64,000 nt of DNA from Methylomonas sp. (GCF_023228165.1 NZ_JALOBS010000005.1:82264-146263), one strand, 5' to 3'. Counted from the first letter of the stretch, positions 8,494 to 62,984 are shown. Notes: a model not told the origin generated them from the sequence alone. A program made the numbers and translations.

Positions 8494-9372
8494 TCAATTT
8501 GTCTTTTCTTTTTTATCCAATAACCAGTAGGTTACTCCCAAGGCGAATACCGCGGCGGCACTGGCATAAATATAATGTGGTTCTAAATATTTAAAATCAA
8601 AAACGATCACTTTTCTGGATATAGCCATCAACGCGGTAGCCACTACCAGTTTTACGGGAATCACATCACTACGCAAATACAAACTAATGTTTAAATAAAT
8701 TTCTATTGCAATAAGTACCAATAAAAACGCACTAAACGTCGACAATAAATCCGTTATGCTCAAAACCAAATATGGAGGCGTGGCAAGCTTTTGATACAAC
8801 ACAAAAATCACTTGAAACACACCAAGAAAAATTACCATTACCATTAAGCCGGCTAAAATAGTTACCGCAAAACGAATAGCTTTGTGAAACGACTTGAGAA
8901 TATCACCCTGCTCATCATCAACCGGTAATTCTTCATGTGATTTACGTTTTTGATAGGCGCCTTTAAAATGCGTCATCAATGTGCCCAGCAACCTTTGATT
9001 CAGTTCGCTATGAGGAGAACCACCGCCCTCGCTGAAGAAACTATTCACTCCTTCAATATTCAGACCGGCCAACTGGGACATATCCAGCTCTTCAAAGCCC
9101 ATGCTCCAATCTGGAAATTGCCGTTCACTTATGTATTTTCGTTCTAGTTCAATTATATTTTTATGGCGTGGATCCCGTTTGAGTTTTAGAAAAGCTTTAT
9201 TAACCTCTTCTTCCTTACCTTCCAAAACCTGCACAAAACACTCATTAAAGTACAACAGAACGCCGGTGATGCCGGAAGCTGAATTACAGCGCCGACACTG
9301 CCTCAGGAGCGACATTAAATCATCGGTAGAAAAAGGTTTTACTGCATGACTGATGTAAACTAACCGGATCAT
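8494..9372 (-). CDS. BLUF photoreceptor fused to a PsiE-like membrane domain
   Basis: N-terminal RLVYIS...N..SGITGVLLY..FVQVLEG...RH...WSM retains the BLUF Tyr/Asn/Gln/Met; C-terminal TM region with LIAIE...ATALMAISRKVIVFD resembles PsiE. Confidence 0.88.
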   Translation of the reverse strand: MIRLVYISHAVKPFSTDDLMSLLRQCRRCNSASGITGVLLYFNECFVQVLEGKEEEVNKAFLKLKRDPRHKNIIELERKYISERQFPDWSMGFEELDMSQLAGLNIEGVNSFFSEGGGSPHSELNQRLLGTLMTHFKGAYQKRKSHEELPVDDEQGDILKSFHKAIRFAVTILAGLMVMVIFLGVFQVIFVLYQKLATPPYLVLSITDLLSTFSAFLLVLIAIEIYLNISLYLRSDVIPVKLVVATALMAISRKVIVFDFKYLEPHYIYASAAAVFALGVTYWLLDKKEKTN

Positions 9373-28276: not shown

Positions 28277-28951
28277 TTATCTCTTCGATGCAAGCAATGC
28301 AGCTAGCTCGGGTGGAAGCTGCAACGGAAGCGCATTGGTGATAATGGCTTCCCAGAGTCGATAGACACGGCTAGTATTCGTTAGTGGAATTATTCCACCT
28401 TTAACTGTTTTATCTAGGGCTTTGGCCTGAAAGTATGCCCTTGCGACAGCTTCAAGCGGAAAATGCTCGCGTTTCAAGCTCGTCTTGTTATATCCCCCAA
28501 GCTGGTCTCGCAAGGATTTTTCTACTGCTTTTGCATTGTTTAGTTCCGCCACTGCATCTTTGTCTGCGTGGTGAAGCAGTAACCACATCTCAAAACAAGG
28601 CTTGCTTAAAGCAACGGATATGCCTTTTTCTTTGGCTTCTTTGATGATTCGCCTAAATTCTTTTATATGAGGGCCATTAACGTAATGGTCGGTGTCTAAC
28701 AGCATCCAGCGTTCGTCTTCCTCTTCATGTTCGATACCCTCTAGGCGTTCTAGAACATCAATAGCGTGGCATCTGTTCTCATCTAAAGGTGTTTCAACCA
28801 CATGGACTTGCACCCGTGCGATCCGGAAAAAATCGAAATATTGCTTAGGTGCATAGGAGTCATCGCTGGCGACAATAAACAACCTGTCGTCGCGCAAAGT
28901 GCCGACATCTCTGTTTAACGGCCTAGGCTTCAGGTCTTTGATTAAACTCAT
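28277..28951 (-). CDS. RloB-like (AbiLii/TOPRIM-like) protein
   Basis: LFIV....APKQYF, LLDTDH (DxD), SKPCFEMWLLLH; overlaps the upstream ATPase by 4 bp. Confidence 0.8.
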   Translation of the reverse strand: MSLIKDLKPRPLNRDVGTLRDDRLFIVASDDSYAPKQYFDFFRIARVQVHVVETPLDENRCHAIDVLERLEGIEHEEEDERWMLLDTDHYVNGPHIKEFRRIIKEAKEKGISVALSKPCFEMWLLLHHADKDAVAELNNAKAVEKSLRDQLGGYNKTSLKREHFPLEAVARAYFQAKALDKTVKGGIIPLTNTSRVYRLWEAIITNALPLQLPPELAALLASKR

Positions 28952-30321
28952 TGAGACAAATTTTCAATTTCCAGCAATGCGTTCAAATCGCCCAAAAATG
29001 GAATGGCACCATATCGACCTTGCAGGTAACGCTTACGAATATCTTGGTCTGTTCGAACATTAAAATCAGCCAAGGAATAAAGATGGCTGGCTCCGGCTTG
29101 GTCTTTTTCCGCAAACCATATTTCATCGCGACGCAGTAGTTCCAAATCCAGCAAATTCGATTCGTGTGTGGTGATGATGATTTGATGCCTGCCACCTTGG
29201 CAGGATTTTAGAAAAAATTCCAAAAATTGCTTTGCCAAAATAGGGTGCATGCTACGGTCAATTTCATCGATAAAAAATACCGCATTGCCTGTTTGCAAGA
29301 AGTGTAATGCTGGCAGGAGATTTAATAGACGACGAGTGCCATCGGATTCCTCGCTCAAATCCAATGGAATTACCTTGCCTAGTTCGTGCTCATGAGCCGC
29401 TTGAATGCTTAATCTATAAAAATGGTTTTCCTCGCTACGCTCGATCAAAAGCTCATTGCCTTGTTCAAGGCTAATGACGGCGGTACCATCCTTATCTTCA
29501 ACTATATCTTCCAATAATTTGGAAACGAACTTTTTTGGCAACAGGTTACGTAGCTCTTCTTCGCTGATTTCGGTTTTTTGCGGTTGTAAATGTGTTATCC
29601 CGGTAGATGCTGATCTAAGAAAATCTCCGGCAAATGTTAAGAACGTTGAATCACTTGCTAATAAATGTCCAAGCGAACCGAAAGAGGAATCCGGTCCGAT
29701 GAATGTCAAATTGTCATCGAACCAGTTAATGACATTCGTTAACTCATCGTCATAATCTGCGCTATCCAGTGTTGCCTGAATGGTTGCTAGGAACGATTGG
29801 TTTTGTAGTCCGCCGACTGTAAACAGGGCACCTAGCTTACCCTTCTTGAATTTTGTCTTACCGGGTTCAACACGTACATTGCCTTGTTCATCAATTATTC
29901 GTTCATACAGACTTTTTTGTTTAGAGCCTACCACTTCGTACAACCATTCTTCAATAATTTTATAGTCGTCTATTTTTGCTCCATAGCGGTACAGTTTACT
30001 ATCAACAATAAATTGAAGATCGAATACGGAAGGTTCGTCCGCTTCTGGTCCAAAGCGGAATTTTTCGCGCTCCATGCCGCTGTTTTTTTTTCTTGGCTTG
30101 AGAACGATCGTTTTGAGATAGCGTAGCGCTTTAAAAAGGTTGGATTTCCCAGCGCCATTTGCGCCGTATAGAACAGCTGTTTTAAGTACTTTTTCTTTGG
30201 TACCAGGAATAGAACACGCATGATCTTCATGGCTGCCGCTAAGACGATTGCTGGCAACCAGCGACAAGGTCTGTTCCGAGGAAAAAGAACGGAAATTGGA
30301 AACAGAAAACGAGACAATCAT
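28948..30321 (-). CDS. RloA-like ABC/AAA_21 ATPase (AbiLi-like)
   Basis: SVSNFRSF, Walker A GANGAGKSN, signature ESDGT, Walker B FIDEID, H-loop TTH, YLQGRYGAIP; AT-rich. Confidence 0.88.
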   Translation of the reverse strand: MIVSFSVSNFRSFSSEQTLSLVASNRLSGSHEDHACSIPGTKEKVLKTAVLYGANGAGKSNLFKALRYLKTIVLKPRKKNSGMEREKFRFGPEADEPSVFDLQFIVDSKLYRYGAKIDDYKIIEEWLYEVVGSKQKSLYERIIDEQGNVRVEPGKTKFKKGKLGALFTVGGLQNQSFLATIQATLDSADYDDELTNVINWFDDNLTFIGPDSSFGSLGHLLASDSTFLTFAGDFLRSASTGITHLQPQKTEISEEELRNLLPKKFVSKLLEDIVEDKDGTAVISLEQGNELLIERSEENHFYRLSIQAAHEHELGKVIPLDLSEESDGTRRLLNLLPALHFLQTGNAVFFIDEIDRSMHPILAKQFLEFFLKSCQGGRHQIIITTHESNLLDLELLRRDEIWFAEKDQAGASHLYSLADFNVRTDQDIRKRYLQGRYGAIPFLGDLNALLEIENLSQ

Positions 30322-52153: not shown

Positions 52154-52771
52154 ATGAACATCCAACCGGCTAAATTTCATTTACGGGATCAATCGCAGCA
52201 CGCTTGGCAACCGCAACGAGTCTTATTGTTCAGCGGCCATATGATAGATGCAATCCATCGCAGCCCGCCCCGCTTCCCGCCGGAAAAAACCGCACTCGCC
52301 GCGCGATGTATAGCCGATAAATTGGACGAAATGCAAGCCGGACCAAGCGACTTGGCTATCACCCAAGGCGCTAACGGCGGCGACATACTGTTCGCGGAAG
52401 CCTGCCTGCAACGCGGGGTAAAATTGCAACTGCTGCAACCTTTCCAAGAAGCGGAATTCATAGCAAACTCGGTCACTCCGGGTAACGCCGACTGGCTACT
52501 GCGTTACCAAACCATCAGCCAACAATTATCCGCGCCGCCCCTGGCCGCCCCCAGCGAACTCGGCGCCCTGCCCGCGGATATGAACGCCTACGAACGCTGC
52601 AACCTGTGGCTATTAGCCAGCGGCCTGGCCTATGGCCCGGAAAAGCTGGTGTTTATCTGCCTGTGGGATGGCGGTGGCGGAGACGGCCCCGGCGGCACCG
52701 CGCATATGGTGACAGAAGTGCAAAAGCAGCACGGGCAAGTGATTTGGCTGGATACCAGGGCGTTATGGTAG
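52154..52771 (+). CDS. Stand-alone SLOG-like (nucleotide-binding Rossmannoid) protein
   Basis: LFSGHMID...RFP, GANGGDILFAEACL, YERCNLWLL, CLWDG..GDGPGGTAHMV. Confidence 0.7.
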   Translation: MNIQPAKFHLRDQSQHAWQPQRVLLFSGHMIDAIHRSPPRFPPEKTALAARCIADKLDEMQAGPSDLAITQGANGGDILFAEACLQRGVKLQLLQPFQEAEFIANSVTPGNADWLLRYQTISQQLSAPPLAAPSELGALPADMNAYERCNLWLLASGLAYGPEKLVFICLWDGGGGDGPGGTAHMVTEVQKQHGQVIWLDTRALW

Positions 52772-53035
52772 CGCGGACGAATTTAAGCACGGTTCCATCG
52801 GAACCCTCCGCCGGCGCTTTCGCTAGCGCCGACTAGGATTTGTTAATCCAGGCGCTGGAAGGATCCCGGTCATCGGTCCGGAGGCGCTGCTGATGGAATT
52901 GTCAATCCAGGACGGCCAGCTTTGGGAAGAAGGGAATCAGGCCGGGGTTAGAACCCGGCGCATTCAGGATGGCTTATCCATTGCCGGTCTGCATCGACCC
53001 GGAACCTGCGTGCGGAGGCGCCTACTCATTTGTGA

Positions 53036-53133
53036 CCGTCGTTCCGGCATGGATTGTCGGAATCCAGGCGCCAGGATAGATCGAAGTTTGCCATCCATGG
53101 CAATGGATACCCGATTCCTGGCAAGTATGACGG
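53036..53133. repeat. About 98-bp MITE/REP-like element with imperfect terminal inverted repeats
   Basis: ccgtc...ggaatcca / tggatac...gacgg ends; internal palindrome TTGCCA-TCCA-TGGCAA. Confidence 0.6.
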
Positions 53134-53219
53134 GTATTTTGTAGTTGCTGAAGCCGCTTCATAATCAGGTGTGATCAAGTATTGCATCATCGGTTAACCA
53201 ACATTTTTTGGAGTTCTGT

Positions 53220-54260
53220 ATGCTGAAAACCCTCGATATTCTATTAGGCATGACCGTGATCATGCTGATTGTCAGCATGGCGGTGACGGTGTTGACGCAA
53301 TTCATTTCCGGACTGGTGAATCTGCGCGGCAAAAATCTGGCCCGCGGATTGAGCGATTTGCTGCAACAGATAGACCCGAACCTGCAGCGCAACATCGCCG
53401 AGCAAATTACCCGCTCCCTGCTTACTCATCCGATGATCAGCAGCGTCGGCCAACGCCTGGGCGATACCATACACCGGGAGGAATTCGTCAAACTATTGAT
53501 GGACTTGGCCGCCGGCGAGATACCCGAAAATCACAGCCAGCCGTTGTCGGACGAGGCCAAACAACTGCTGATACAACTGTTGCAGCAAAACGGCATCGAC
53601 AACCCCAAGGACACCGTCGATAAAGTCCGCGACTATGCCTTGCAGTTGGAATTGAGCAATCCGGAACTGGCCACTAATGTCCGCCACAGCATTGCCATGC
53701 TCACCGAAGCCAATAGCCGGCTGGTGGCCAAAGTCAACGGCTGGTTCGACCAAACCATGGACAGGGTTTCCGATCGGTTTACCGCCAGCAGCCGCATGGT
53801 CAGTTTGCTGTGTTCGATCATCGTGGTGGCGGCAATACAGCTGGACAGCCTGGACGTAATCAACCGTTTAGCCATGGACGACCAATTGCGCGAAGCACTG
53901 ATCAGCAAAGCCATGGTTATGGAACAAACTCGCGCGGACAATCAGCCGCAACCCAATTTAAATGTCGACACGGTGAAAACCGAACTGCACACCCTGCAAC
54001 AATTGGGGGTTATCGACGTGATCAATAGCGGCAAAAACTGGCGTCAGCATTGGTGCGAAGTCAACCCCATCGGCATCATTCTGTCGGTGTTTCTACTCAG
54101 CCTGGGGGCGCCGTTTTGGTACGGCGCCCTGAAAAACCTGTTGAAACTGCGCGGCGCACTGGCCGGCAGGGATGACGCGCAACGCCAGGAACGTCAGACC
54201 CGCCAGCCGCCGAAATTGCCCGTAACCGGCCAAGCCGACTCGCCGCGAGGCGTCGGCTAG
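53220..54260 (+). CDS. Uncharacterised multi-pass membrane protein
   Basis: GGAG RBS before ATG 53220; hydrophobic segments at the N-terminus, middle and SLGAPFWY C-terminal region, with helical loops. Confidence 0.8.
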   Translation: MLKTLDILLGMTVIMLIVSMAVTVLTQFISGLVNLRGKNLARGLSDLLQQIDPNLQRNIAEQITRSLLTHPMISSVGQRLGDTIHREEFVKLLMDLAAGEIPENHSQPLSDEAKQLLIQLLQQNGIDNPKDTVDKVRDYALQLELSNPELATNVRHSIAMLTEANSRLVAKVNGWFDQTMDRVSDRFTASSRMVSLLCSIIVVAAIQLDSLDVINRLAMDDQLREALISKAMVMEQTRADNQPQPNLNVDTVKTELHTLQQLGVIDVINSGKNWRQHWCEVNPIGIILSVFLLSLGAPFWYGALKNLLKLRGALAGRDDAQRQERQTRQPPKLPVTGQADSPRGVG

Positions 54261-54398
54261 CGGCCCGAAGCTGGGTGGATTGACTAGCCCGAGCCGGCGG
54301 CGAATAATGAAACAGATTAACAGCACAATAATATTTGTAACTCATAATCCGCATGCCCACGCATTCTCACTACGAATGACACATCTAACTTTCAGCCT

Positions 54399-57300
54399 AT
54401 GACCAGCGTATTCATTAGTTACAGCCACGACGACGTCCTTCACCAGCAACGGGTCTACGCCTTGGCCGACCGGCTGCTGAAAGACGGCGTCAATGTCATT
54501 CTCGACCGCGACTGCGGCTCAGGCGGGCCTAACGAAGGCTGGGCCAAATGGTCGGAAATGCAGGCGGACAAAACGGCCATCGTATTACCGGTCTTCACAC
54601 CAGCTTATCGTAAGTGCTGGGATGGCGAACAACCACCTAACATGCGTTTAGGTGCTATTCACGAACTCAAGGTGATCTATCAACGGCTCTACAAAGCTGG
54701 CAGCAATATCGATTTTTGCCGCATCCTCACCTTCGAAGACGAGCACCGCAACAGCATACCGACTTTTCTGGAAGGCCTGCCGGTTTTCGATGTCCAGCGT
54801 GACTATGACCAAATCATCGCCTGGTTACGCTGGAAAGGCGCCGCACCAGAACCCAACACAAGCACCTCTGAAATTTCCTGGCCCAACATTCCCGATGACT
54901 ATCCCTGGCCGCTGGCCGACCGTGCAGATCAATTAATTACATTTAAGGGGATGATCAGAGGAACAACTAGGGAACGTATTTTCCTGCTCGAAGGTGCCAG
55001 CAATACAGGAAAAACTTCACTGCTCTCTGCATTTTTTAATCTAGCAAAATCAGTCGAACTTGATGCCGTTTTTCTCGATTTAAAAGGTTGCTCCAGCTTG
55101 GAAGACCTGTTCGACACCTTGGCGCTTGAAGCAAACGACAGCATCTTGCCTGCATTTCACAGTGCCAATGGCGATGCGCGAAAAATCGCACTGCTGCAGG
55201 ATTTGAAAAATCTGCGAAAACCTTTGTTGATCGGCTTCGACACCTATCAACACATCGCACCGGATGTTGCCGACTGGCTCGAAAGCCAATTCCTACGCCG
55301 GGTTGAACAATGTCCGGGATTATTGATACTGATCGCCGGCCAGAAAGTCCCGGATCCGACCAAATACCCCTGGGGCACGCTAGCCATGCCACATCAGTTG
55401 CAAGCGATCCGGGAGAAAAAATACTGGCGCGAGTATGCCGAACGGGTATTGAAAAAGTCGAATATCACCGATGAATATATCGAAGCGGCGCTGCATATTT
55501 ATCAGGGAGACCCCGGTGCAACCAGTGCATTCCTTCAATCTATTACTTTAAAAAACACTCCAACTTCACATCCAGACGAACAAGTTGTAAGTATAAATGA
55601 CGGTCAACCTTTAAATGAAGTCAAAGCAATATTAGTCGGACGAGGAGCTGCCGGGAAAACATCTATAGTTCGTCAATTAGTCAATAATAGTTTTAATCCG
55701 AACGAAAAAGAAACTCTCGGCATCGATATTTCCTCATGTTATTTAACATACGGGGACTACAAATTTAAAGTCAATTTCTGGGATTTCGCTGGACAAATAA
55801 CCGCGCATGCCACCCATCAATTTTTCTTTTCGAGAAATAGCGTTTATATCCTAGTTATTACCGGACGAGAGGATACCCAAAAACTAGATGCTGATTATTG
55901 GTTGCGACTGATACGAGCTCTTGCATATGACTCGACTGGAGAATCTCCAAAAGTCATTATTGCAATGAATAAATGGGAACCAGTTGGTTTTAAAATTGAC
56001 CGAAATTATTTAAAAGAAAAATATCCTTTTATCATAGATTTTATAGAAACCGACTGCAGTACAGGTCGAGGAATAAACCCCTTAAAAAATAAATTAGCCG
56101 AAGCCATTGATTCCATGGCATTTGTGCACCAATCATTTAAACTAAGTTGGTGGAATATTAAAAATCGTTTGGAAACTGAACAATCCAAAAAGAATTATTT
56201 ATCTTACATCGAATTTCAATCCATATGTGCCGAGCTGGGTGAAACAAATACTGAGTATCAACGCCTATTATCTGAGACTTTTCATCAGCTAGGAATTGCT
56301 TTAAATTATAGACAAGATGAACGCTTGCGTAATTCCACCGTATTAAATCCTAACTGGTTAACCGAAGGTATATACAAATTATTGCGACTTGCTGCGGCAA
56401 ATGATGGCAGCGCTGAACTTACTCTTGACTCCGCCCAAAAAACACTGCCAGACGAGTCGAGAAATATGTGTGAGTTTTTGATCGAATTAATGCGGCGTTT
56501 TGATTTGGCTTTTCCACTTAACGAAGCAAATGATCGCTGGTTAGTTCCTCAACGTTTACCAGAGGAACAACCAGAACTGGGGATAGAATGGACATTAAAT
56601 ACAGACGCTACTCGATTAATATTCCGCTATCCAGTTGTCCCAGAGGGCTTAATGCCGCGTTTTATTACGCGCACATATCCGCTCAGCGAAGGAAACGATG
56701 ATACAGGCCCACTTCCACGTTGGGCCAATGGCGTAGTTTTAGAAGACAGTGAAGCACGTGCGCTTGTGCGATTAGATCAAGAGCTGAGAACAATTACAGT
56801 AATAGCCATTGGTGAACAATCTGCCCGGTTGTCGTTACTCGGTGTAATTCAGTCTGATTTTCGAACAATTCACGAAGACATAAAAGGACTTGGGCAAGAA
56901 AGATTTTTAGAAGTCGAGGGAAGACCTGACATCTATGCTCCAGTAGAAACTTTATTGGCCGACGAAAGACTTAAACGCCCGTCCTCGGCGGCTACACCGC
57001 AAGGTACTTTAATACTTGATCCGACAAAAGAACTAAATCGATTATCCGAACCCTCTGCACGTAAAGAAGGTCTTTGGCAAGCTAAAGTGTTTATCAGTTA
57101 TTCAAGTACAGACGCACGAATGAAGGATCAATTATTGACCCGCCTTAAGCCTATGCAGGAACGCGCGGGATTGATCAAATATTGGCATGATCGTCTGATT
57201 ACACCCGGCGAAAATTGGGATGGTGAAATAAAAAGCCAGATTAAAGAGGCAGACATCATTCTATTACTAGTAAGTGCCAAATTTTTAGCCTCTGACTATG

Positions 57301-57563
57301 TCAACAGTGTTGAACTCAAATTAGCTATTGAACGCGCAACATCCGAGCGAACTATTTTAATCCCAATTATTCTCGAAAAGTGTTGTTGGGAAACTCAAAC
57401 ATTTAGTGCATTTCAAGCATTACCACTTAAAGGAAAACCTATACGCGACATCAAGCCACAACGAGATGGCTGGCATCAAGTCGAGAGTGAATTAATGCAT
57501 ATTTTTCGAAAATTAAGGGAAAATCGATCAACTAAAGATGATTCCAAATTGAATAATCAGTAA
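54399..57563 (+). CDS. SEFIR/TIR - P-loop NTPase - Roc GTPase - COR - TIR multidomain protein
   Basis: VFISYSHDD (N-terminal TIR/SEFIR); GASNTGKT; Roc G1 GRGAAGKTS, G3 FWDFAGQ, G4-like NKWE; COR (LNPNWLTEGIY, PEGLMPRFITR); C-terminal TIR KVFISYSSTD...LLLVSAKFLASDY. Confidence 0.88.
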   Translation: MTSVFISYSHDDVLHQQRVYALADRLLKDGVNVILDRDCGSGGPNEGWAKWSEMQADKTAIVLPVFTPAYRKCWDGEQPPNMRLGAIHELKVIYQRLYKAGSNIDFCRILTFEDEHRNSIPTFLEGLPVFDVQRDYDQIIAWLRWKGAAPEPNTSTSEISWPNIPDDYPWPLADRADQLITFKGMIRGTTRERIFLLEGASNTGKTSLLSAFFNLAKSVELDAVFLDLKGCSSLEDLFDTLALEANDSILPAFHSANGDARKIALLQDLKNLRKPLLIGFDTYQHIAPDVADWLESQFLRRVEQCPGLLILIAGQKVPDPTKYPWGTLAMPHQLQAIREKKYWREYAERVLKKSNITDEYIEAALHIYQGDPGATSAFLQSITLKNTPTSHPDEQVVSINDGQPLNEVKAILVGRGAAGKTSIVRQLVNNSFNPNEKETLGIDISSCYLTYGDYKFKVNFWDFAGQITAHATHQFFFSRNSVYILVITGREDTQKLDADYWLRLIRALAYDSTGESPKVIIAMNKWEPVGFKIDRNYLKEKYPFIIDFIETDCSTGRGINPLKNKLAEAIDSMAFVHQSFKLSWWNIKNRLETEQSKKNYLSYIEFQSICAELGETNTEYQRLLSETFHQLGIALNYRQDERLRNSTVLNPNWLTEGIYKLLRLAAANDGSAELTLDSAQKTLPDESRNMCEFLIELMRRFDLAFPLNEANDRWLVPQRLPEEQPELGIEWTLNTDATRLIFRYPVVPEGLMPRFITRTYPLSEGNDDTGPLPRWANGVVLEDSEARALVRLDQELRTITVIAIGEQSARLSLLGVIQSDFRTIHEDIKGLGQERFLEVEGRPDIYAPVETLLADERLKRPSSAATPQGTLILDPTKELNRLSEPSARKEGLWQAKVFISYSSTDARMKDQLLTRLKPMQERAGLIKYWHDRLITPGENWDGEIKSQIKEADIILLLVSAKFLASDYVNSVELKLAIERATSERTILIPIILEKCCWETQTFSAFQALPLKGKPIRDIKPQRDGWHQVESELMHIFRKLRENRSTKDDSKLNNQ

Positions 57564-57606
57564 ATGGTTATTGAAGTTTTTTTAAAAAAACCCAAAGTAG
57601 GCACCC

Positions 57607-58770
57607 ATGACCCAAACCGTATTAGACCGCATGCAAGCCCCCGGCTCCAAGAAAATTCTCGCCTGTGACGGCGGCGGCATCTTGGGTTTGATGAGCGTGG
57701 AGATACTGGCCAAGCTGGAATATGACTTGCGGGTAAAGCTGGGCAAGGATGATAAGTTCGTACTGGCGGATTATTTCGATTTTGTCTGCGGCACCAGCAC
57801 CGGGGCGATTATTGCCGCCTGCATCGCCTGCGGCATGTCCATGGACAAGATCAGAGAGTTCTATCTGGACAGCGGTGAACAGATGTTCGACAAGGCCTCG
57901 CTGTTGAAACGCTTGCGTTTCAATTATAACAACGAGCCGCTGGCAAAATTGCTGAGAAAAGCTTTTGATGAACAATTGCTGGAAAGCAACGCCACGCTGG
58001 GCAGCTCCAAGCTGCGCACGCTGTTGATGATGGTATTGCGCAATCACAGTACCGATTCGCCGTGGCCGGTCAGCAATAATCCGCTGGCCAAATACAACGA
58101 CCTGAGTCGGCGCGACTGCAATCTGTTTTTACCGCTGTGGCAACTGGTGCGGGCCAGCAGCGCCGCGCCAACCTATTTTCCGCCGGAAGTGGTGACTTTC
58201 GCCGAGGGTTCGCCGGAGGAATATAACTTTATCTTCGTCGACGGCGGCGTTACCACTTATAACAACCCGGCCTATCTGGCCTTTCAAATGGCCACCGCCG
58301 CGCCCTATAACATCAACTGGCCAACCGGCGAAAACCAGCTGTTGATCGTTTCGGTCGGCACCGGCGGCGCGGCCAAAACCCTGGCCAAAAACACCGGCGT
58401 GGACGAACTGAATATTTTGCATTTCGCCCAAAACATACCCTCGGCCTTGATGAATGCCGCCTCGGCGGGCTGGGACATGACCTGCCGCACCTTGGGCGCC
58501 TGCCGGCACGGCGGGCTTATCGATAGGGAAATCGGCGATATGGTACAGTCACCCAACACAGTGAATTTCAGCGGGCCGAAATTATTCAGTTATCTGCGCT
58601 ACGACCCTTCGGTGACCCGGGAGGGACTGGATGCCTTGGGTTTGCGCGATGTCGACCCGGCCCATGTGCAGAGCCTGGATTCGGTGGCGCATATCGGCGA
58701 CATCCGGCGGGTCGGCATCGAGTACGCCAACACGCACATCAAGCCGGAACATTTTAAAGGCTTTGTCTGA
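57607..58770 (+). CDS. Patatin-like phospholipase
   Basis: DGGGILG, GTSTG nucleophile and DGG motifs intact. Confidence 0.93.
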   Translation: MTQTVLDRMQAPGSKKILACDGGGILGLMSVEILAKLEYDLRVKLGKDDKFVLADYFDFVCGTSTGAIIAACIACGMSMDKIREFYLDSGEQMFDKASLLKRLRFNYNNEPLAKLLRKAFDEQLLESNATLGSSKLRTLLMMVLRNHSTDSPWPVSNNPLAKYNDLSRRDCNLFLPLWQLVRASSAAPTYFPPEVVTFAEGSPEEYNFIFVDGGVTTYNNPAYLAFQMATAAPYNINWPTGENQLLIVSVGTGGAAKTLAKNTGVDELNILHFAQNIPSALMNAASAGWDMTCRTLGACRHGGLIDREIGDMVQSPNTVNFSGPKLFSYLRYDPSVTREGLDALGLRDVDPAHVQSLDSVAHIGDIRRVGIEYANTHIKPEHFKGFV

Positions 58771-58796
58771 TTCTAATTCAATTGGGGGAGATCAAC

Positions 58797-60092
58797 ATGG
58801 CGGACCAACAAAAAACCTGCTTCGTGGTGATGGGCTTCGGCGTCAAAACCGATTATCACACCAGCCGCGAGCTGGACCTGGATAAAAGCTATAAATACAT
58901 CATCAAGACGGCGGTGGAAGACGCCGGTCTGAAATGCATCCGGGCCGATGAAATCCCGCATGCCGGCACCATCGATGTGCCGATGTTCGAGCAATTGCTG
59001 AAGGCCGATGTGGTGTTGGCGGATTTATCCACCTCCAACTGCAATGCTATTTATGAACTGGGGGTTAGGCATGCGTTAAGGCCACGTACCACCATCATCA
59101 TCGCCGAGGAACAATTCGCCAATCCGTTTGACGTTAACCATATCCTGATCCGCCGCTATCGGCATGACGGCAAGGTGTTGGATATTGAAGAAGTGGACCG
59201 GTTTCGAAAGCTACTCAAACAAGCCATTATCGACATCGTCAATGCCGAGCAAAACGATAGCCCGGTGTATACCTATTTAAGTAATCTTGAACCACCGGAA
59301 GAACGCATCGTCACCACTGGCAAAGCCGGCAATATCGTTTCGGCAATCGCACCGGAAACGGCCGCCGCACCGGAACCGACTACTCCGGCGGTGTCGGTAT
59401 TGCTGCAACAAGTGACCGAAGCCAAGAAAAACAGCGATTTTTTACTCGCCAAAGCGCTGCTGACCACCTTGCACACGCTATCCCCCCGTCAATCGCAATG
59501 GGTGCAGCAACTGGCGCTGGTCACCTACAAAGCCAAATACCCCGACCCTTACAACGCCCTGCTTGAAGCTAAGCAGATTCTGCAACCCCTGCAACCGGAG
59601 TCTTCGAATAATGCCGAAACCTTGGGGATTTGGGGCGCCATCCATAAACGGTTGTTCGACATCAGCCGCGATCCGGGCGATCTGGATACGGCCATCAGCG
59701 CTTACGAAAAAGGCTATCGCTTACAAAGCGATTACTACAACGGTATCAATTGGGCATTCCTGTTGAATGTGCGGGCATCCCTGACCCAGGATAGGGCGGA
59801 AGCCATTACCGATTTTATGCTGGCCCGCCGCACCCGCGCGGATGTGTTGAAAATCGCCGATGCCAAATTCGCCGAGCTGAAAACCATCAAGGATGTGGAA
59901 GACGACGATAACCGTTACTGGGTGTTAGCCACCAAGGCCGAAGCCTGGGTGGGACTGGGTAATGACGCCGAAGCCGAGGAATGCCTGCGGCAAGCCAAAC
60001 CGTACTCCGAATATTGGATGTGCGAATCCACCCAACAGCAAATCGATGCGCTGAAGAAATTATTGCAAAACTCGCCTCTGGATGGACTATAA
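58797..60092 (+). CDS. NDT/deoxyribohydrolase-like domain + TPR domain (DUF4071/MAP3K TRAF-binding-like)
   Basis: CFVVMGF...RADE...ADVVLADLS..N.NAIYELGVRHAL, then TPRs (ETLGIWGAIHKR, YYNGIN, YWVLATKAEA). Confidence 0.82.
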   Translation: MADQQKTCFVVMGFGVKTDYHTSRELDLDKSYKYIIKTAVEDAGLKCIRADEIPHAGTIDVPMFEQLLKADVVLADLSTSNCNAIYELGVRHALRPRTTIIIAEEQFANPFDVNHILIRRYRHDGKVLDIEEVDRFRKLLKQAIIDIVNAEQNDSPVYTYLSNLEPPEERIVTTGKAGNIVSAIAPETAAAPEPTTPAVSVLLQQVTEAKKNSDFLLAKALLTTLHTLSPRQSQWVQQLALVTYKAKYPDPYNALLEAKQILQPLQPESSNNAETLGIWGAIHKRLFDISRDPGDLDTAISAYEKGYRLQSDYYNGINWAFLLNVRASLTQDRAEAITDFMLARRTRADVLKIADAKFAELKTIKDVEDDDNRYWVLATKAEAWVGLGNDAEAEECLRQAKPYSEYWMCESTQQQIDALKKLLQNSPLDGL

Positions 60093-60161
60093 CCATAACA
60101 ACGCTTTACCGGGCCGAGCGATCAGCCAGGCCCCCATTCACACCTCAGCGGAGCACCTGCC

Positions 60162-62984
60162 ATGGCCAAACAAAACTATAAAAAATTAATCACTCAAGCC
60201 CAGGAACTCATCGACCAAACCCAAGCTAGCGGCACCCCTGCCGACGCCGCCGTGGATAAATGCTTCCTGTTATCCAAGCAACTGTATCAGCAAGGCGAAG
60301 TGCGCGTTTCCCGGCAATTGTTAGTTAAAGCTCGGGAATTACTCAAGCAACAGGGCGAAGCCTGTTTGGCTAAAACACCTTTGGACGAAACAGAAACCCT
60401 GGGATTGACCAAACGTTTAAAAAATGTGGATGAACATGCGCTGGCGCGGCAATTGTTACACAAACTGCTCGCGCAAGGTTGCAGCGACGAGCTGACGATC
60501 AAAGCCACCCAGCAATTAGCTTTAAATACCTATAAAGACAGCGAACTGCCGCCAGACGAACGCCATAGCCAAGCTTTAACTATATTGGAAGGCATAGGCT
60601 TGCGCAGCCCGGATTGCAAGGACCCGGAAACCTTGGGCCAAGCCGGTGCGATTTATAAACGCAAATTCGACCGCTCCGGCCGCCTGGAAGACTTACAAGC
60701 CGCGCATTATTTTTACCAGCGCGGCTGGACGCTAAACCCGGAACAGGACATGGGTTACTGCGGCATCAATGCGGCGTTTATTCTGGACAAATTGGCGCAC
60801 CGGGCCCATGTCAACGCGGCCCGCGAAAAAATTCCCGCTACCGAATGCGAATCCTTGAGCAAGCAAGCCAACGACTTGCGCAAGCAACTATTGGCCGAAT
60901 TGCCGAATTACGCCACCGTGCAGGACCAAGACATCCTCAACCAATGGTGGTTTTTGGTGAGCATGGCGGAAGCCGCTTTCGGCCTGGAGCAATGGGATGC
61001 AGCCGGCAAATGGCTGGAACAGGCCAAAACCGCCGAACACTTCGAATGGGAACGCCAGACCACCACCCGACAACTGGTGGCTATCGCCCGGATGCAAGGT
61101 TTTGTGCCGCCCGAGGACGGTCAATCCGCCAAGGATTGGGCGCCGCCCTGGCAGGTTTTGAGCCTTTTATTGGGGGCCGATGCGCCGGCCTGCTTTGAGT
61201 GTTTTCGCGGCAAGGTCGGCTTGGCGCTGTCCGGCGGCGGCTTCCGGGCTTCGCTGTATCATCTGGGGGTACTGGCGCGTTTGGCGGAGGTGGATGCGCT
61301 ACGCAGCGTGGAGGTATTGTCGACGGTATCCGGCGGCAGCATCGTCGGCGCGCATTATTATTTGGCCTTGCGCAAACTGTTGATGGAAAAAACCGACGCC
61401 GAAATCAGCCGCGACGATTACATCCAGTTGGTGCGCGAGGTGATAGCGCAATTTTTTAACGGCGTCTCGGAAAACCTGCGGGTACGGGCGCTGGCCAGCC
61501 TGCCCGACAACTTTAAAATGCTGTTTCAATCCGGCTACGGCCGCAGCAATCGGATGGGGGAGCTGTACGAAACCTACTTCTACCAACAAGTTGAAGCGTA
61601 TCAAGCTGCCGCCGACGGCGTGGCGAACATGCGGCCCATGCACGATTTACGCATCCATCCGCTCACCGCCGATCCGCTCGGCAATACCACCTTTACCGAC
61701 CAAAGCTTCCACCCCCAACACGCCAACTGGCGGCGCCGGTCTAAAGTGCCGACCTTGTTATTAAACACCACCTCGCTGAATTCCGGGCATAACTGGCACT
61801 TTACCGCCAGCTTTATGGGCGAGCCGCCGGGGCTGACAGGACAGGACATCGATATGAACCAGCGCTATCGACGCTTGTATTACTGGCAGGCGCCTACCGA
61901 AAAACTCAAACACTACCCGCTGGGTTACGCGGTGGCCGCTTCCGCCGGAGTGCCGGCCCTGTTCGATCCCTTGGAACTGAACGATTTGTACCCGGATCGC
62001 ACCATTCGCCTGGTGGATGGCGGCGTGCACGACAATCAGGGCGTGGCGGGTTTACTGGATGAATGCTGTGATTTGATTTTATGCAGCGATGCCTCCGGAC
62101 AAATGGACGATCAAGCCTCACCTAAAAAAAGCGCCTTAAGCGTGTTTTTTCGTTCCGATAGCATTTTGCAGGACCGGGTGCGGGAGGCCCAATATCAAGA
62201 CCTGGAAGCCAAAGCTAAAAATAATGCCTTGCAGGGTTTGTTTTTCATCCATTTAAAACTGGATTTGCATGCCGACCCGCTGGATTGGATACAGTGCGAT
62301 AACCCTACTCCGGAGCCGCAACGACCACATTGCACGGATTACGGCATAGACCGCAGCCAGCAACGCCGCCTGGCCCAAATCCGCACCGATCTGGATACCT
62401 TTACCGAAGTGGAAGCTTATGCGCTGATGGCCAGCGGTTATGCCATGACCAAGCATCAACTGTCCGAGCTAGACCGGCAACACCAAAGTCTGCAACTCAA
62501 CGGCCATTGGGCCGATTTTGATATCCACGCACCGGAGCAAAACTGGCCTTTCAGCAGCATTGCTCCCATCCTGACGGCCGATCCGGAAGCCGGTGATCCT
62601 AAGGCAAAGGATTTGGCCAAGCAACTCAGCGCCTCCAGCCTGATGGCTGGCAAAGCCTTGGTGCTTATCCCAACCTTGAAATACGCCGGTATGGCCTGCG
62701 GATTATTGCTGTTGGCTCTATTAATCGATTGGATTAAACAAAACTGGCTGGATCACACCACGATTACTTTGGGGGTCGCCAGCATCACCACGGCCCTTAT
62801 CATTACTTTGGTCGGTGTGTTACTGCCTTTCGGTAAATATCTGCAACCTTTGGACACCGCTCGCAAATGGATAGGTTTGGCCGTGCTCGGCAGTGTAGGT
62901 TGGGCGTTGGCCAATCTGCATTTGAAGTTTTTCGACCAGTGGTTTAAAAAGCGCGGCAAATTGCAGCGCTTGTTAAATTTGTAA
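60162..62984 (+). CDS. TPR (DUF4071-like) + patatin-like phospholipase + C-terminal TM helices
   Basis: ETLGQAGAIYKR, GYCGINAAF, WWFLVSMAEA; LALSGGGFRA, STVSGGS, DGG; three hydrophobic segments at the C-terminus. Confidence 0.85.
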   Translation: MAKQNYKKLITQAQELIDQTQASGTPADAAVDKCFLLSKQLYQQGEVRVSRQLLVKARELLKQQGEACLAKTPLDETETLGLTKRLKNVDEHALARQLLHKLLAQGCSDELTIKATQQLALNTYKDSELPPDERHSQALTILEGIGLRSPDCKDPETLGQAGAIYKRKFDRSGRLEDLQAAHYFYQRGWTLNPEQDMGYCGINAAFILDKLAHRAHVNAAREKIPATECESLSKQANDLRKQLLAELPNYATVQDQDILNQWWFLVSMAEAAFGLEQWDAAGKWLEQAKTAEHFEWERQTTTRQLVAIARMQGFVPPEDGQSAKDWAPPWQVLSLLLGADAPACFECFRGKVGLALSGGGFRASLYHLGVLARLAEVDALRSVEVLSTVSGGSIVGAHYYLALRKLLMEKTDAEISRDDYIQLVREVIAQFFNGVSENLRVRALASLPDNFKMLFQSGYGRSNRMGELYETYFYQQVEAYQAAADGVANMRPMHDLRIHPLTADPLGNTTFTDQSFHPQHANWRRRSKVPTLLLNTTSLNSGHNWHFTASFMGEPPGLTGQDIDMNQRYRRLYYWQAPTEKLKHYPLGYAVAASAGVPALFDPLELNDLYPDRTIRLVDGGVHDNQGVAGLLDECCDLILCSDASGQMDDQASPKKSALSVFFRSDSILQDRVREAQYQDLEAKAKNNALQGLFFIHLKLDLHADPLDWIQCDNPTPEPQRPHCTDYGIDRSQQRRLAQIRTDLDTFTEVEAYALMASGYAMTKHQLSELDRQHQSLQLNGHWADFDIHAPEQNWPFSSIAPILTADPEAGDPKAKDLAKQLSASSLMAGKALVLIPTLKYAGMACGLLLLALLIDWIKQNWLDHTTITLGVASITTALIITLVGVLLPFGKYLQPLDTARKWIGLAVLGSVGWALANLHLKFFDQWFKKRGKLQRLLNL

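What the first reader, a model, noticed from the sequence alone, without database searches (positions are those of the whole stretch)
54399..57563. Chimeric Roco protein: LRRs replaced by a SEFIR/TIR-NTPase module, with a TIR at each end
Seen: two P-loops in one chain (GASNTGKT, GRGAAGKT), TIR-like domains at both termini and no LRRs. The DNA becomes visibly more AT-rich from about 55530, at the linker before Roc. Known: bacterial Roco proteins are typically LRR-Roc-COR, often with a C-terminal TIR. Inference: a recent in-frame fusion of two conflict genes, giving an ATP- and GTP-controlled dimerising TIR switch.
Basis: partly seen in the sequence, partly recalled or inferred. Interest (0 to 1): 0.7.

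Follow-up and report, generated by a model that had tools for sequence, protein, structure and literature searches.

The report
One-off SEFIR-ATPase / Roco-TIR gene fusion
A Methylomonas defence island carries a one-of-a-kind gene in which a SEFIR-ATPase immune gene is fused in frame to the GTPase-TIR part of a foreign, AT-rich Roco gene that took the place of the ATPase's usual partner gene; this shows cleanly how bacterial immune proteins get rebuilt by cassette swapping, but whether the hybrid works is unknown.

Summary
ORF 54399-57563 (+) encodes 1054 aa: SEFIR, a STAND-type P-loop NBD with helical lid, a 19-aa linker, then Roc, COR-A, COR-B and TIR. It has no LRRs.

Each half has its own family:
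- aa 1-381 match free-standing ~387-aa SEFIR-NBD proteins (up to 77% identity).
- aa 401-1054 match LRR-Roc-COR-TIR Rocos (up to 66%).

No other protein covering both halves was found among 5.8 billion clusters or 1.84 billion representatives. Homology breakpoints (55540, 57607) coincide with compositional change points (55530, 57600). In-phase GC3 drops from 0.57 to 0.30.

In the nearest relative locus (L005), a 645-aa partner gene occupies that position. So a ~2.07-kb AT-rich cassette replaced the partner and the last six SEFIR-NBD codons.

The gene lies in a hypervariable slot of a conserved Methylomonas island (205-aa gene ... patatin, TPR-S, TPR-S-patatin). That slot is empty in M. lenta and holds TIR + nSTAND1-WD40 in M. 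methanica.

A second assembler reproduces both junctions. The Roco half occurs in only one public run.

Both parents' sensor arms (TPR partner, LRR) are lost, while all switch and conserved TIR-fold residues are kept. The fusion is real and recent. The proposed "ATP/GTP-controlled TIR switch" remains untested.

The parts
54399..57563 (+). Whole chimeric ORF, 1054 aa
   Evidence: Only the query itself gives full-length coverage.
54405..54857 (+). SEFIR (TIR-fold) domain, aa 3-153; family-invariant Glu89
   Evidence: Pfam SEFIR, PADLOC bSEFIR, AF2 fold, invariant columns of A2.
54915..55403 (+). STAND/AAA+-type nucleotide-binding domain, aa 173-335; Walker A GASNTGKT 54993-55016, Walker B Asp281 within 55224-55247
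   Evidence: AAA_16; AF2 plus Foldseek hits to RPP1, ORC/Cdc6, CED-4 and MalT; motif positions.
55416..55541 (+). Helical lid (HD1), aa 340-381; last stretch homologous to the free-standing SEFIR-NBD family, ending ...GDPGATSAFLQS
   Evidence: Alignment A1. blastn to L005 and L001 stops at 55540.
55542..55598 (+). 19-aa linker ITLKNTPTSHPDEQVVSIN; first part of the AT-rich DNA, no clear homologue in either parent family
55599..56108 (+). Roc GTPase, aa 401-570; P-loop GRGAAGKT 55638-55661, G3 WDFAGQ 55779-55796, G4 variant NKWE within 55965-55979
   Evidence: Pfam Roc; PDB CtRoco and MbRoco2; invariants of A3.
56145..56981 (+). COR-A (aa 583-719) and COR-B (aa 738-861)
   Evidence: Pfam. PDB 3dpu/6hlu/8r4b aligned over aa 405-861, E about 1e-45.
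57081..57515 (+). C-terminal TIR, aa 895-1039, ThsB-like; family-invariant Glu972 (57312-57314)
   Evidence: TIR_2, PADLOC ThsB1 1.6e-33, invariants of A3.
55541..57606 (+). Replaced cassette: 2066 bp of AT-rich DNA (GC 0.39) that occupies the place of L005 2033-4091 (645-aa partner gene)
   Evidence: blastn, junction alignments, change points. This DNA is found only in run X1.
52154..52771 (+). 205-aa gene, left edge of the conserved island frame
   Evidence: 65% aa identity to L001. Present in M. lenta and M. methanica.
52765..52997 (+). Relics of a lost TIR gene (M. methanica TIR481): remnants of its 5' end and of a 3' part
   Evidence: tblastn and blastn against L075.
53208..54260 (+). 350-aa membrane-type protein gene upstream of the chimera
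   Evidence: 86% aa identity to the M. methanica 337-aa gene, and 74% to L005.
57607..58770 (+). Patatin-like phospholipase (CapV-like), right edge of the slot
   Evidence: Pfam, PADLOC and NCBIfam. 89% aa identity to L005, 75% to L072.
58782..60092 (+). 436-aa protein: N-terminal TIR-like alpha/beta domain plus TPR-S
60162..62984 (+). 940-aa TPR-S plus patatin protein with a hydrophobic C-terminus
   Evidence: Conserved in L005, L074 and L075.

Best explanation
**What it is (shown; about 0.9).** A Methylomonas chromosome carries a defence island with a conserved frame: a 205-aa gene, then patatin, a TPR-S protein, a TPR-S-patatin protein and a 520-aa gene. Between the 205-aa gene and patatin lies a hypervariable slot.

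In this lineage the slot held a two-gene module. The first gene encodes SEFIR-NBD-lid. The second is a tightly coupled partner gene encoding a conserved ~185-aa N-domain plus TPR or TPR-S repeats.

A ~2.07-kb AT-rich piece from a lower-GC donor then replaced the partner gene and the last six codons of the SEFIR-NBD gene. This piece carries the Roc-COR-A-COR-B-TIR part of a Roco without its LRRs. It landed in frame. The result is one 1054-aa protein ordered effector-switch-switch-effector (SEFIR, ATP-type NBD, Roc-COR, TIR). It has lost the sensor arms of both parents.

**How it most likely works (inferred; about 0.4).** TIR-fold enzymes need ordered self-association to form active sites.
- COR-B would supply a GTP-state-dependent dimer, as in C. 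tepidum Roco.
- The NBD would supply ATP-dependent association.
- Together they would bring the SEFIR and TIR heads into contact to cleave NAD+.
- The product would either deplete NAD+ or act as a nucleotide signal for the neighbouring TPR-S-coupled effectors (patatin lipases).
- Because no sensor is left in cis, triggering would have to come in trans or from the nucleotide state.
For: **Separate parent families**
- 227 hits cover only about 61% of the query, the C-terminal part, and are mostly LRR-Roc-COR-TIR. The best is 66% identical.
- free-standing 387-389-aa SEFIR-NBD proteins are up to 77% identical to aa 1-385.

**Junction at residue and base level**
- Homology to L005 and L001 ends at 55540, six codons before their stop codon.
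- It resumes at 57607, the patatin ATG.

**Composition**
- Change points fall at 55530 and 57600. GC3 goes from 0.567 to 0.302, with 0/1000 permutations reaching this.
- Related Roco genes have GC3 of about 0.60. The AT-richness is therefore specific to this copy.

**Partner gene**
- It follows the SEFIR-NBD gene within 0-12 nt in all seven free-standing contexts: L001, L003, L004, L005, L006/7, L008 and L009.
- It is absent from the window.

**States of the slot**
- Empty in M. lenta.
- TIR481 + nSTAND1-WD40 in M. methanica, at the same chromosomal site.
- Relics of TIR481 remain in the window.
- The closest Roco relatives sit next to homologous patatin and TPR-S genes.

**The junction is real**
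- An independent Logan contig covers 55378-59500 with 0 differences.
- Depth is equal on both sides.

**The fusion is unique**
- Among the 150 best of 1.84 billion representatives, none has a best-scoring match spanning both sides of the junction.
- All six hits with two stretches were checked and none joins a STAND NBD to Roc.
- The Roco half occurs only in run X1.
- Other metagenomes hold ~90%-identical flanks with different sequence in between.

**Integrity**
- All 40 invariant columns of the N-terminal family and all 71 of the C-terminal family are kept, including both P-loops, G3, Glu89 and Glu972.
- The coding frame is open for 673 codons in the AT-rich part. The other frames are open for at most 48-55 codons.
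- There is no in-frame start codon between codons 352 and 501.
- dN/dS of the SEFIR-NBD part against L005 is about 0.20.

**Folds**.

**Literature**
- Bacterial LRR-AP-GTPase-COR proteins with variable C-terminal effectors are predicted counter-invader systems (PMC8195603).
- A bacterial SEFIR protein defends against phage phi29 (bioRxiv 10.1101/2022.05.11.491447).
- A TPR domain of the Thoeris effector ThsI is proposed to perceive TIR-made cADPR (bioRxiv 10.64898/2025.12.03.692087).
Against: - There is one sequence from one metagenome sample. Raw reads were not available, only Logan contigs made from the same run.
- Those contigs break at 55378-55405, about 135 nt upstream of the junction.
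- No donor closer than 66% aa identity was found. 'Lower-GC donor' is therefore inferred from composition alone.
- Nothing tests function. The hybrid lacks both sensor arms and the partner's conserved N-domain, and the NBD module has no winged-helix domain of its own.
- No clear Shine-Dalgarno sequence is visible upstream of the ATG.
- Purifying selection cannot be measured for the period after the fusion.
- The same slot already holds decayed remnants of another TIR gene. This shows that genes do die here.
Confidence: 0.7

Rival explanations
1. The fusion is real but functionally dead, or merely tolerated. It would be a by-product of cassette turnover in a recombination-prone slot, on its way to decay. 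Having lost both sensors and its partner, the protein is never activated or is not made in useful amounts.
For: - It is a singleton.
- The obligate partner gene is lost and the LRRs are lost.
- Relics of a dead TIR gene lie 1.4 kb upstream.
- The partner gene is fragmented in another locus, L008.
- There is no obvious ribosome-binding site.
- The unameliorated composition means too little time has passed for decay to show.
Against: - The join is in frame and falls in linker regions of both parents, so whole domains are preserved.
- Every family-invariant residue is kept in both halves.
- The organism carrying it reached about 10x depth in its sample.
- None of this excludes a young, neutral fusion.
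Confidence: 0.4
2. It is an assembly artefact. The contig joins reads from two organisms, a GC-rich Methylomonas and an AT-rich organism carrying a Roco.
For: - The source is a metagenome and the compositional step is sharp.
- Logan's contigs break at 55378-55405.
- The junction 29-mer is absent from both public contig collections.
Against: - One Logan contig runs without a difference from 55378 through both breakpoints to 59500 and beyond.
- Depth is 9.7 versus 9.4 on the two sides.
- An artefact would need two chimeric joins, 2.07 kb apart, that restore synteny with L005, L074 and L075 exactly at the patatin start and keep the reading frame.
Confidence: 0.04
3. The Roc-COR-TIR part is made as a separate protein. 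This would happen through an internal start, or a frameshift or stop missed in the assembly. The locus would then encode two ordinary proteins rather than one hybrid.
For: LRR-less Roc-COR-TIR genes of 672-689 aa exist on their own (P0011, P0013).
Against: - There is no ATG, GTG or TTG in frame between codon 352 and codon 501, while the Roc P-loop is at codons 414-421.
- The SEFIR-NBD stop codon and its last six codons are gone.
- Two assemblies agree base for base.
Confidence: 0.04
4. It is an established, widespread architecture with its own family, not a recent event.
For: None found.
Against: - No hit other than the query itself covers more than about 63% of the full-length query.
- No representative's best-scoring match spans the junction, and the hits with two stretches lack a STAND NBD.
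- Composition is discontinuous.
- Close relatives of the locus carry other genes at this position.
Confidence: 0.02

Closest known systems
Bacterial LRR-Roc-COR-TIR Roco proteins (AP-GTPase conflict systems; Kaur et al. 2021, PMC8195603); solved relatives are C. tepidum Roco (3dpu, 6hlu, 8r4b) and M. barkeri Roco2 (4wnr)
   Same: - aa 401-1054 are 60-66% identical to Methylococcales members.
- The Roc-COR-A-COR-B tandem matches, with G1 and G3 intact, plus a C-terminal TIR in the effector position.
- The relatives also sit next to patatin and TPR-S genes.
   Different: - There are no LRRs. The N-terminal 'sensor' position is taken by a SEFIR-NBD-lid module.
- The DNA is far more AT-rich than in relatives (GC3 0.30 versus 0.60).
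- G4 reads NKWE rather than NKxD.
Free-standing SEFIR-NBD (~387 aa) plus partner (N-domain + TPR/TPR-S) two-gene module of Methylococcales, Nitrosomonas and others; uncharacterised
   Same: - aa 1-381 are 53-77% identical to it, and all 40 family-invariant residues are kept.
- It has the same upstream neighbour and the same start as in L005.
   Different: - The last six codons and the stop codon are missing.
- The partner gene, present in 7 of 7 free-standing contexts, is replaced by Roc-COR-TIR fused in frame.
bSEFIR anti-phage protein (Bacillus sp. NIO-1130; Millman et al., bioRxiv 10.1101/2022.05.11.491447)
   Same: It has an N-terminal SEFIR domain. The PADLOC bSEFIR profile is matched at E=4e-26 over profile positions 40-190.
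   Different: Only the SEFIR part of the 412-position profile matches. The rest of the protein is unrelated, and defence activity was not tested here.
Other non-LRR Roco architectures found here: TIR-Roc-COR-TIR (P0229, P0321), X-SEFIR-Roc-COR (P0286), LRR-Roc-COR-TIR-ABC-ATPase (P0083, P0087)
   Same: They have a TIR-fold domain N-terminal to Roc, or a second P-loop ATPase in the same chain.
   Different: - None places a STAND-type NBD between the TIR-fold domain and Roc.
- None is a close relative of the N-terminal half.
TIR-NLR / TIR-STAND immune receptors (plant RPP1, 7dfv/7crc; bacterial Avs-type)
   Same: A TIR-fold head is followed by an AAA+/STAND NBD and helical lid. RPP1 is the best structural match of aa 1-400.
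   Different: - There is no winged-helix domain and no repeat sensor in cis. In the parent these appear to be supplied by the partner gene (inference).
- Sequence identity is only about 10-12%.
Thoeris-type TIR signalling (ThsB TIR plus effector; type VIII effector ThsI with a TPR domain, bioRxiv 10.64898/2025.12.03.692087)
   Same: - The C-terminal TIR scores as ThsB-like.
- The neighbours are effector-type proteins (patatin; TIR-like + TPR-S; TPR-S + patatin), in which a TPR could be the signal receptor.
   Different: - No ThsA is present.
- Identity of the 436-aa neighbour with ThsI could not be shown.
- No signal molecule is known for this island.

Membership tests
Roco proteins | Ras-like Roc GTPase domain directly followed by a COR domain (COR-A + COR-B) in one chain | tested here: met
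   Pfam Roc 6e-25, COR-A 1e-31, COR-B 5e-14. phmmer to CtRoco Roc-COR over aa 405-861 gives E about 1e-45, and to MbRoco2 6e-56.
Roco proteins | Intact GTP-binding motifs G1, G3 and G4 | tested here: inconclusive
   G1 GRGAAGKT and G3 DFAGQ are invariant and present. The N and K of G4 are invariant across the family, but the motif reads NKWE and not NKxD; relatives have NKWK, NKWE or NKWD. Nucleotide specificity was not measured.
Roco proteins (typical bacterial form) | N-terminal leucine-rich repeats (typical of the bacterial form, not strictly defining) | tested here: not met
   No LRR family is hit in Pfam, whereas most relatives carry LRR_8, LRR_4 or LRR_14.
STAND NTPases | P-loop NBD with Walker A and B, followed by a helical lid (HD1) | tested here: met
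   AAA_16 at 33.5 bits against a cut-off of 32.6. G199, G204, K205 and D281 are invariant. AF2 pLDDT is 90.8, with Foldseek hits to RPP1, CED-4, MalT and ORC/Cdc6.
STAND NTPases | Winged-helix domain and C-terminal repeat sensor (TPR, WD40 or LRR) in the same chain | tested here: not met
   The model ends with the lid at about aa 385, and Roc follows. In relatives a separate partner gene carries the TPR arrays. In the window that gene is gone.
bSEFIR defence system | N-terminal SEFIR domain stronger than TIR | tested here: met
   PADLOC bSEFIR 4e-26. Pfam SEFIR 5.9e-10 at aa 3-141.
bSEFIR defence system | Full-length similarity to the bSEFIR protein | tested here: not met
   Only profile positions 40-190 of 412 are matched.
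bSEFIR defence system | Demonstrated anti-phage activity | not testable with these tools
   This needs phage challenge experiments.
Thoeris | ThsB-type TIR protein | tested here: met
   PADLOC ThsB1 1.6e-33 over aa 895-1039, domain level only.
Thoeris | Adjacent signal-activated effector (ThsA or another described Ths effector) | tested here: inconclusive
   PADLOC found no ThsA among the six proteins scanned. The 436-aa neighbour has a TIR-like domain plus TPR-S and resembles the published description of ThsI, but no sequence or fold link could be shown.
CBASS | CD-NTase next to the CapV-like patatin | not tested
   The patatin neighbour matches the CBASS lipase models below their cut-off (121 bits against 200). 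No CD-NTase was seen among the island's proteins, but the rest of the window was not scanned with PADLOC.

The most novel reading that the evidence does not exclude
The hybrid is a working immune protein. In this reading a STAND ATPase switch and a Roco GTPase switch act in series on two TIR-fold heads, and its product is a nucleotide signal read by the TPR-S domains of the conserved neighbours (patatin lipases and a TIR-like/TPR-S protein). The island would then be a Thoeris-like signalling system with a fixed effector set and a plug-in slot. Into that slot quite different TIR-bearing NTPase sensors are swapped: TIR + nSTAND1-WD40, SEFIR-NBD + TPR partner, LRR-Roco, or this chimera. It would show that STAND and Roco modules are naturally interchangeable and even combinable.
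Probability: 0.15. Interest if true: 0.75.

Novelty: new variant of a known kind. Interest (0 to 1): 0.45.

Why it matters
Both parent types, TIR-STAND and Roco-TIR, are models for how immune switches turn on TIR enzymes, from bacteria to plants and to LRRK2-type proteins in humans.

Here nature has joined the two switch modules in one chain, and the 'before' state is known almost to the base. The unfused locus, the empty slot and alternative cassettes are all sampled.

This gives:
- A clean, datable example of immune-gene innovation by cassette replacement in a defined hot spot.
- A ready-made construct for asking whether a Roc-COR dimer can substitute for a STAND sensor/partner arm, and what removing the LRR does to a Roco-TIR.
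- A candidate island in which TPR-S-coupled effectors may read signals from interchangeable TIR sensors.

If the hybrid turns out to be inert, it is still a documented snapshot of the raw material of such evolution, but no more than that.

Tried and rejected
- **Other carriers of the fusion.** The junction 29-mer had no exact match in genome contigs or metagenome contigs. The exact protein is not on record in the contig index.
- **The donor of the AT-rich segment.** The best protein match is 66%. Plasmid relatives are at most 33% identical and there are none in phages. The DNA occurs only in run X1.
- **'The Roco gene family is AT-rich everywhere'.** Rejected, because relatives have GC3 of about 0.60.
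- **A single deletion inside a resident SEFIR-NBD | TPR-S | LRR-Roco array.** Disfavoured because of the compositional step. It is not fully excluded, since such an array was not sampled.
- **Repeats or mobile-element ends at the cassette borders.** Only short chance-level matches were found, and no integrase or transposase was seen in the island.
- **Promoter and terminator scan.** One promoter-like site lies at 54280-54308, but there are fewer sites than in shuffles, so this is not informative.
- **A link between the 436-aa neighbour and Thoeris ThsI or CMP hydrolase.** Pfam gave nothing for its N-domain even at E<=5. Foldseek was dominated by the TPR part, with ASK1 on top. A profile search against PDB gave nothing.
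- **Literature search for 'TPR-S'.** Nothing relevant was found. The term is not used in PMC7159879 or PMC8195603.
- **GC3.** My first value for the cassette (0.381) was computed out of phase. The in-phase value is 0.302.
- **A short resemblance between the two parents near the junction.** The tail of SEFIR-NBD proteins (TSAFLQSFxG) resembles the pre-Roc linker of Rocos (TSPxAILAAYFG). I did not find it convincing as homology and did not pursue it.


Full report
**1. Observation**

The ORF at 54399-57563 (+) is real and encodes 1054 aa.

Pfam finds SEFIR (aa 3-141), AAA_16 (175-309), Roc (409-526), COR-A (583-719), COR-B (738-835) and TIR_2 (897-1011). It finds no LRR family. PADLOC adds bSEFIR (3-153, E=4e-26) and a ThsB-type TIR (895-1039, E=1.6e-33).

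The two P-loops are GASNTGKT (aa 199-206) and GRGAAGKT (aa 414-421).

An AlphaFold2 model of aa 1-400, built on 43 family sequences, has pLDDT 90.8. It shows three parts: a TIR-fold domain, a P-loop alpha/beta domain and a helical lid ending near aa 385. Its best PDB matches are the plant TIR-NLR RPP1, ORC/Cdc6, CED-4 and MalT. The middle domain is therefore a STAND/AAA+-type NTPase.

aa 401-861 match solved Roc-COR structures. C. tepidum Roco gives E about 1e-45 and M. barkeri Roco2 gives 6e-56.

GC falls from about 0.53 to 0.39 and returns to 0.55. The fitted change points are 55530 and 57600. GC3 falls from 0.567 to 0.302, and 0 of 1000 permutations reach that value.

**2. Two parents and no sibling**

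With the full protein as query, only the query itself is covered end to end. The other 227 hits cover about 61%, the C-terminal part. Most are LRR-Roc-COR-TIR proteins and the best is 66% identical. They come from Methylomonas, Methylosarcina and Verrucomicrobia.

With aa 1-400 as query, the hits are free-standing 387-389-aa SEFIR-NBD proteins, up to 77% identical. They come from Methylomonas rivi, Nitrosomonas and Methylumidiphilus.

I ran an exhaustive HMMER search of 1.84 billion representatives with aa 160-720, which straddles the junction. Each hit's best-scoring match lies on only one side. All six hits with two stretches were checked. They are tandem Roc-COR, LRR-Roco or TIR-Roc-COR-TIR proteins.

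That search also shows that Rocos are architecturally loose. TIR-Roc-COR-TIR, SEFIR-Roc-COR and LRR-Roc-COR-TIR-ABC-ATPase all exist. Only the STAND-NBD plus Roc-COR combination is unique here.

**3. The join**

- Homology to the SEFIR-NBD family runs through GDPGATSAFLQS (aa 381).
- A 19-aa linker with no clear homologue follows.
- Roco homology starts at DGQPLNEVK (aa 401).

At the DNA level, the closest related locus is L005, a 9.45-kb contig. It aligns to window 53501-55540 at 78.5% identity and to 57607-62953 at 83.5%.

Between these blocks L005 has a 645-aa gene that overlaps the SEFIR-NBD stop by 4 nt. The window has 2066 bp of AT-rich DNA instead. The left break lies six codons before the SEFIR-NBD stop. 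The right break is at the patatin start codon.

No repeats mark the borders.

**4. What was displaced**

In seven free-standing contexts (L001, L003, L004, L005, L006/7, L008, L009) the SEFIR-NBD gene is followed within 0-12 nt by a 520-645-aa partner gene. In L008 the partner is fragmented into several ORFs.

The partners share a conserved N-terminal domain of about 185 aa. After it come TPR arrays or, in L005, a copy of the neighbouring TIR-like/TPR-S protein.

I infer a split STAND. Gene 1 supplies the effector, NBD and lid. Gene 2 supplies the remaining helical part and the repeat sensor. The window has no partner copy.

**5. The island**

RecG places the organism in Methylomonas, at 85% identity to M. 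rivi. The window is ordinary chromosome, with FtsH, RecG, SpoT and a hydrogenase-4-like operon.

Close orthologues of the 436-aa neighbour led to two isolate genomes:

| Genome | Gene order |
|---|---|
| M. lenta | 205-aa gene, 413-nt gap, patatin, TPR-S, TPR-S-patatin, 520-aa gene |
| M. methanica | hydrogenase, 205-aa gene, TIR481, nSTAND1-WD40, TM protein, patatin, TPR-S, TPR-S-patatin, 520-aa gene |

The M. methanica locus is at the same chromosomal site as the window. The window keeps relics of TIR481 at 52765-52997.

The closest Roco relative, P0004, sits in TPR-S657 | LRR-Roco | 172 aa | patatin | TPR-S446. Its patatin is 75% identical to the window's.

So the frame is conserved, and the slot between the 205-aa gene and patatin turns over. 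In each filled state sampled (M. methanica, L005, the window) it holds a TIR- or SEFIR-bearing NTPase module. In the P0004 loci an LRR-Roco-TIR likewise sits upstream of the homologous patatin.

The related Roco genes have GC3 of about 0.60. The AT-richness of the window's copy is therefore its own and points to a lower-GC donor, which was not found.

**6. Is it an artefact?**

Run X1, a groundwater metagenome, holds the sequence. One Logan contig matches 55378-59500 without a difference and so spans both breakpoints. Another covers 53000-55405. Their depths are 9.4 and 9.7.

The contig break at 55378-55405 is unexplained. It lies inside SEFIR-NBD sequence and not at the join.

Other metagenomes hold ~90%-identical flanks but nothing of the Roco insert. 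In one of them a single contig bridges 55303 to 57605 with about 2.05 kb of different sequence.

I put the risk of an artefact at about 4%.

**7. State of the gene**

- All family-invariant residues are kept in both halves, 40 and 71 columns respectively.
- The coding frame is open for 673 codons in AT-rich DNA whose other frames close within 55 codons.
- There is no in-frame start from which Roc could be made separately.
- dN/dS of the SEFIR-NBD part against L005 is about 0.20. This averages over time before and after the fusion.
- No clear ribosome-binding site is visible.

**8. Mechanism**

Shown: the architecture is effector-switch-switch-effector with no sensor in cis.

Inferred: TIR-fold enzymes act when ordered self-association builds their active sites. 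This rests on established knowledge of TIR NADases, Thoeris ThsB and TIR-NLR resistosomes. COR-B gives a nucleotide-dependent dimer in C. tepidum Roco. STAND NBDs oligomerise on ATP.

The hybrid could therefore gate SEFIR/TIR contacts by both nucleotides. It would either deplete NAD+ or make a signal for the TPR-S effectors next door. A TPR domain is proposed as the cADPR receptor in the Thoeris effector ThsI (bioRxiv 10.64898/2025.12.03.692087).

I give this about 0.4. The rival, a young and inert by-product, also gets about 0.4. The origin story gets about 0.9.

**9. Comparison and verdict**

The C-terminal half is a Roco by its defining Roc-COR tandem, but it lacks the usual LRRs. The N-terminal half is a STAND-type NBD and lid without a winged-helix domain or a sensor. 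It shares only the SEFIR domain with bSEFIR.

Domain shuffling in such systems is well known (PMC7159879, PMC8195603). This is therefore a new variant of a known kind, seen once.

Its value lies in the unusually complete reconstruction of the event and in the variable-slot island around it.

Noticed in passing
window 52765-52997: Relics of a TIR gene. There is a tblastn match to aa 1-54 of the M. methanica TIR481 protein, and a 77-nt blastn match to its 3' part. The TIR481 + nSTAND1-WD40 cassette present in M. methanica has been lost here.
   Followed up: partly
window 52154-62984; L074 (M. lenta), L075 (M. methanica), L005, L072/L073: A conserved island frame (205-aa gene ... patatin, TPR-S ~434 aa, TPR-S-patatin 940 aa, 520-aa gene) surrounds a hypervariable slot. 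Four states were sampled at the slot: empty, TIR + nSTAND1-WD40, SEFIR-NBD + partner, and the chimera. In L072/L073, which share only the patatin and TPR-S part of the frame, an LRR-Roco-TIR occupies the corresponding place upstream of patatin. This may be a signalling system with swappable TIR-bearing sensors.
   Followed up: partly
window 52349-52785 versus L070 7568-8001 and L072 3516-3663: The C-terminal part of the 205-aa protein is homologous to the C-terminus of the 657-aa TPR-S proteins that precede LRR-Roco genes. It has no Pfam hit. Its GGGGDGPGGT stretch recalls the PGGxGT motif of LOG/SLOG domains; that is from memory and was not tested.
   Followed up: no
L005 2054-3991: The displaced 645-aa partner is itself a mosaic. 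It combines the ~185-aa partner N-domain with a 55%-identical copy of the neighbouring 431-aa TIR-like/TPR-S protein. Other partners carry long arrays of ~48-aa TPR-like repeats instead.
   Followed up: partly
L008 9176-11483: In one relative the partner gene is called as four ORFs of 90, 109, 76 and 520 aa. It is either a pseudogene or a repeat-collapse artefact of assembly.
   Followed up: no
window 55378-55405: Logan's contigs of run X1 break here with a 28-nt overlap, about 135 nt upstream of the fusion junction. No alternative branch was found and the cause is unknown.
   Followed up: partly
window 57576-57591: A perfect palindrome, GTTTTTTTAAAAAAAC, lies in the 43-nt spacer between the chimera's stop codon and the patatin start. 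It lies in the AT-rich cassette and has no counterpart in L005.
   Followed up: no
window 28277-30321 (-): An AAA_21/AAA_15 ABC-type ATPase (457 aa) is overlapped by an RloB-like protein (224 aa). GC is 0.42-0.46, below that of the surrounding genes. It looks like a separate small defence or toxin-antitoxin-type module.
   Followed up: no
window 6363-7190 (-) and 8494-9372 (-): Two other AT-rich genes are present: a fatty-acid hydroxylase family protein (GC 0.35, GC3 0.32) and a BLUF-PsiE fusion protein (GC 0.40). Like the cassette, they stand out in composition.
   Followed up: no
proteins P0199, P0223, P0083, P0087, P0229, P0286, P0321: Several unusual Roco architectures turned up in public data: tandem Roc-COR-Roc-COR, LRR-Roc-COR-TIR with a C-terminal ABC-type ATPase, TIR-Roc-COR-TIR, and SEFIR-Roc-COR.
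   Followed up: partly
alignment A1, columns ~375-400 (window aa 374-381): The tail of SEFIR-NBD proteins (TSAFLQSFxG) resembles the linker before Roc in Rocos (TSPxAILAAYFG). This could be chance or a shared helix. If it were real at the DNA level in the donor, it might have guided the join.
   Followed up: no
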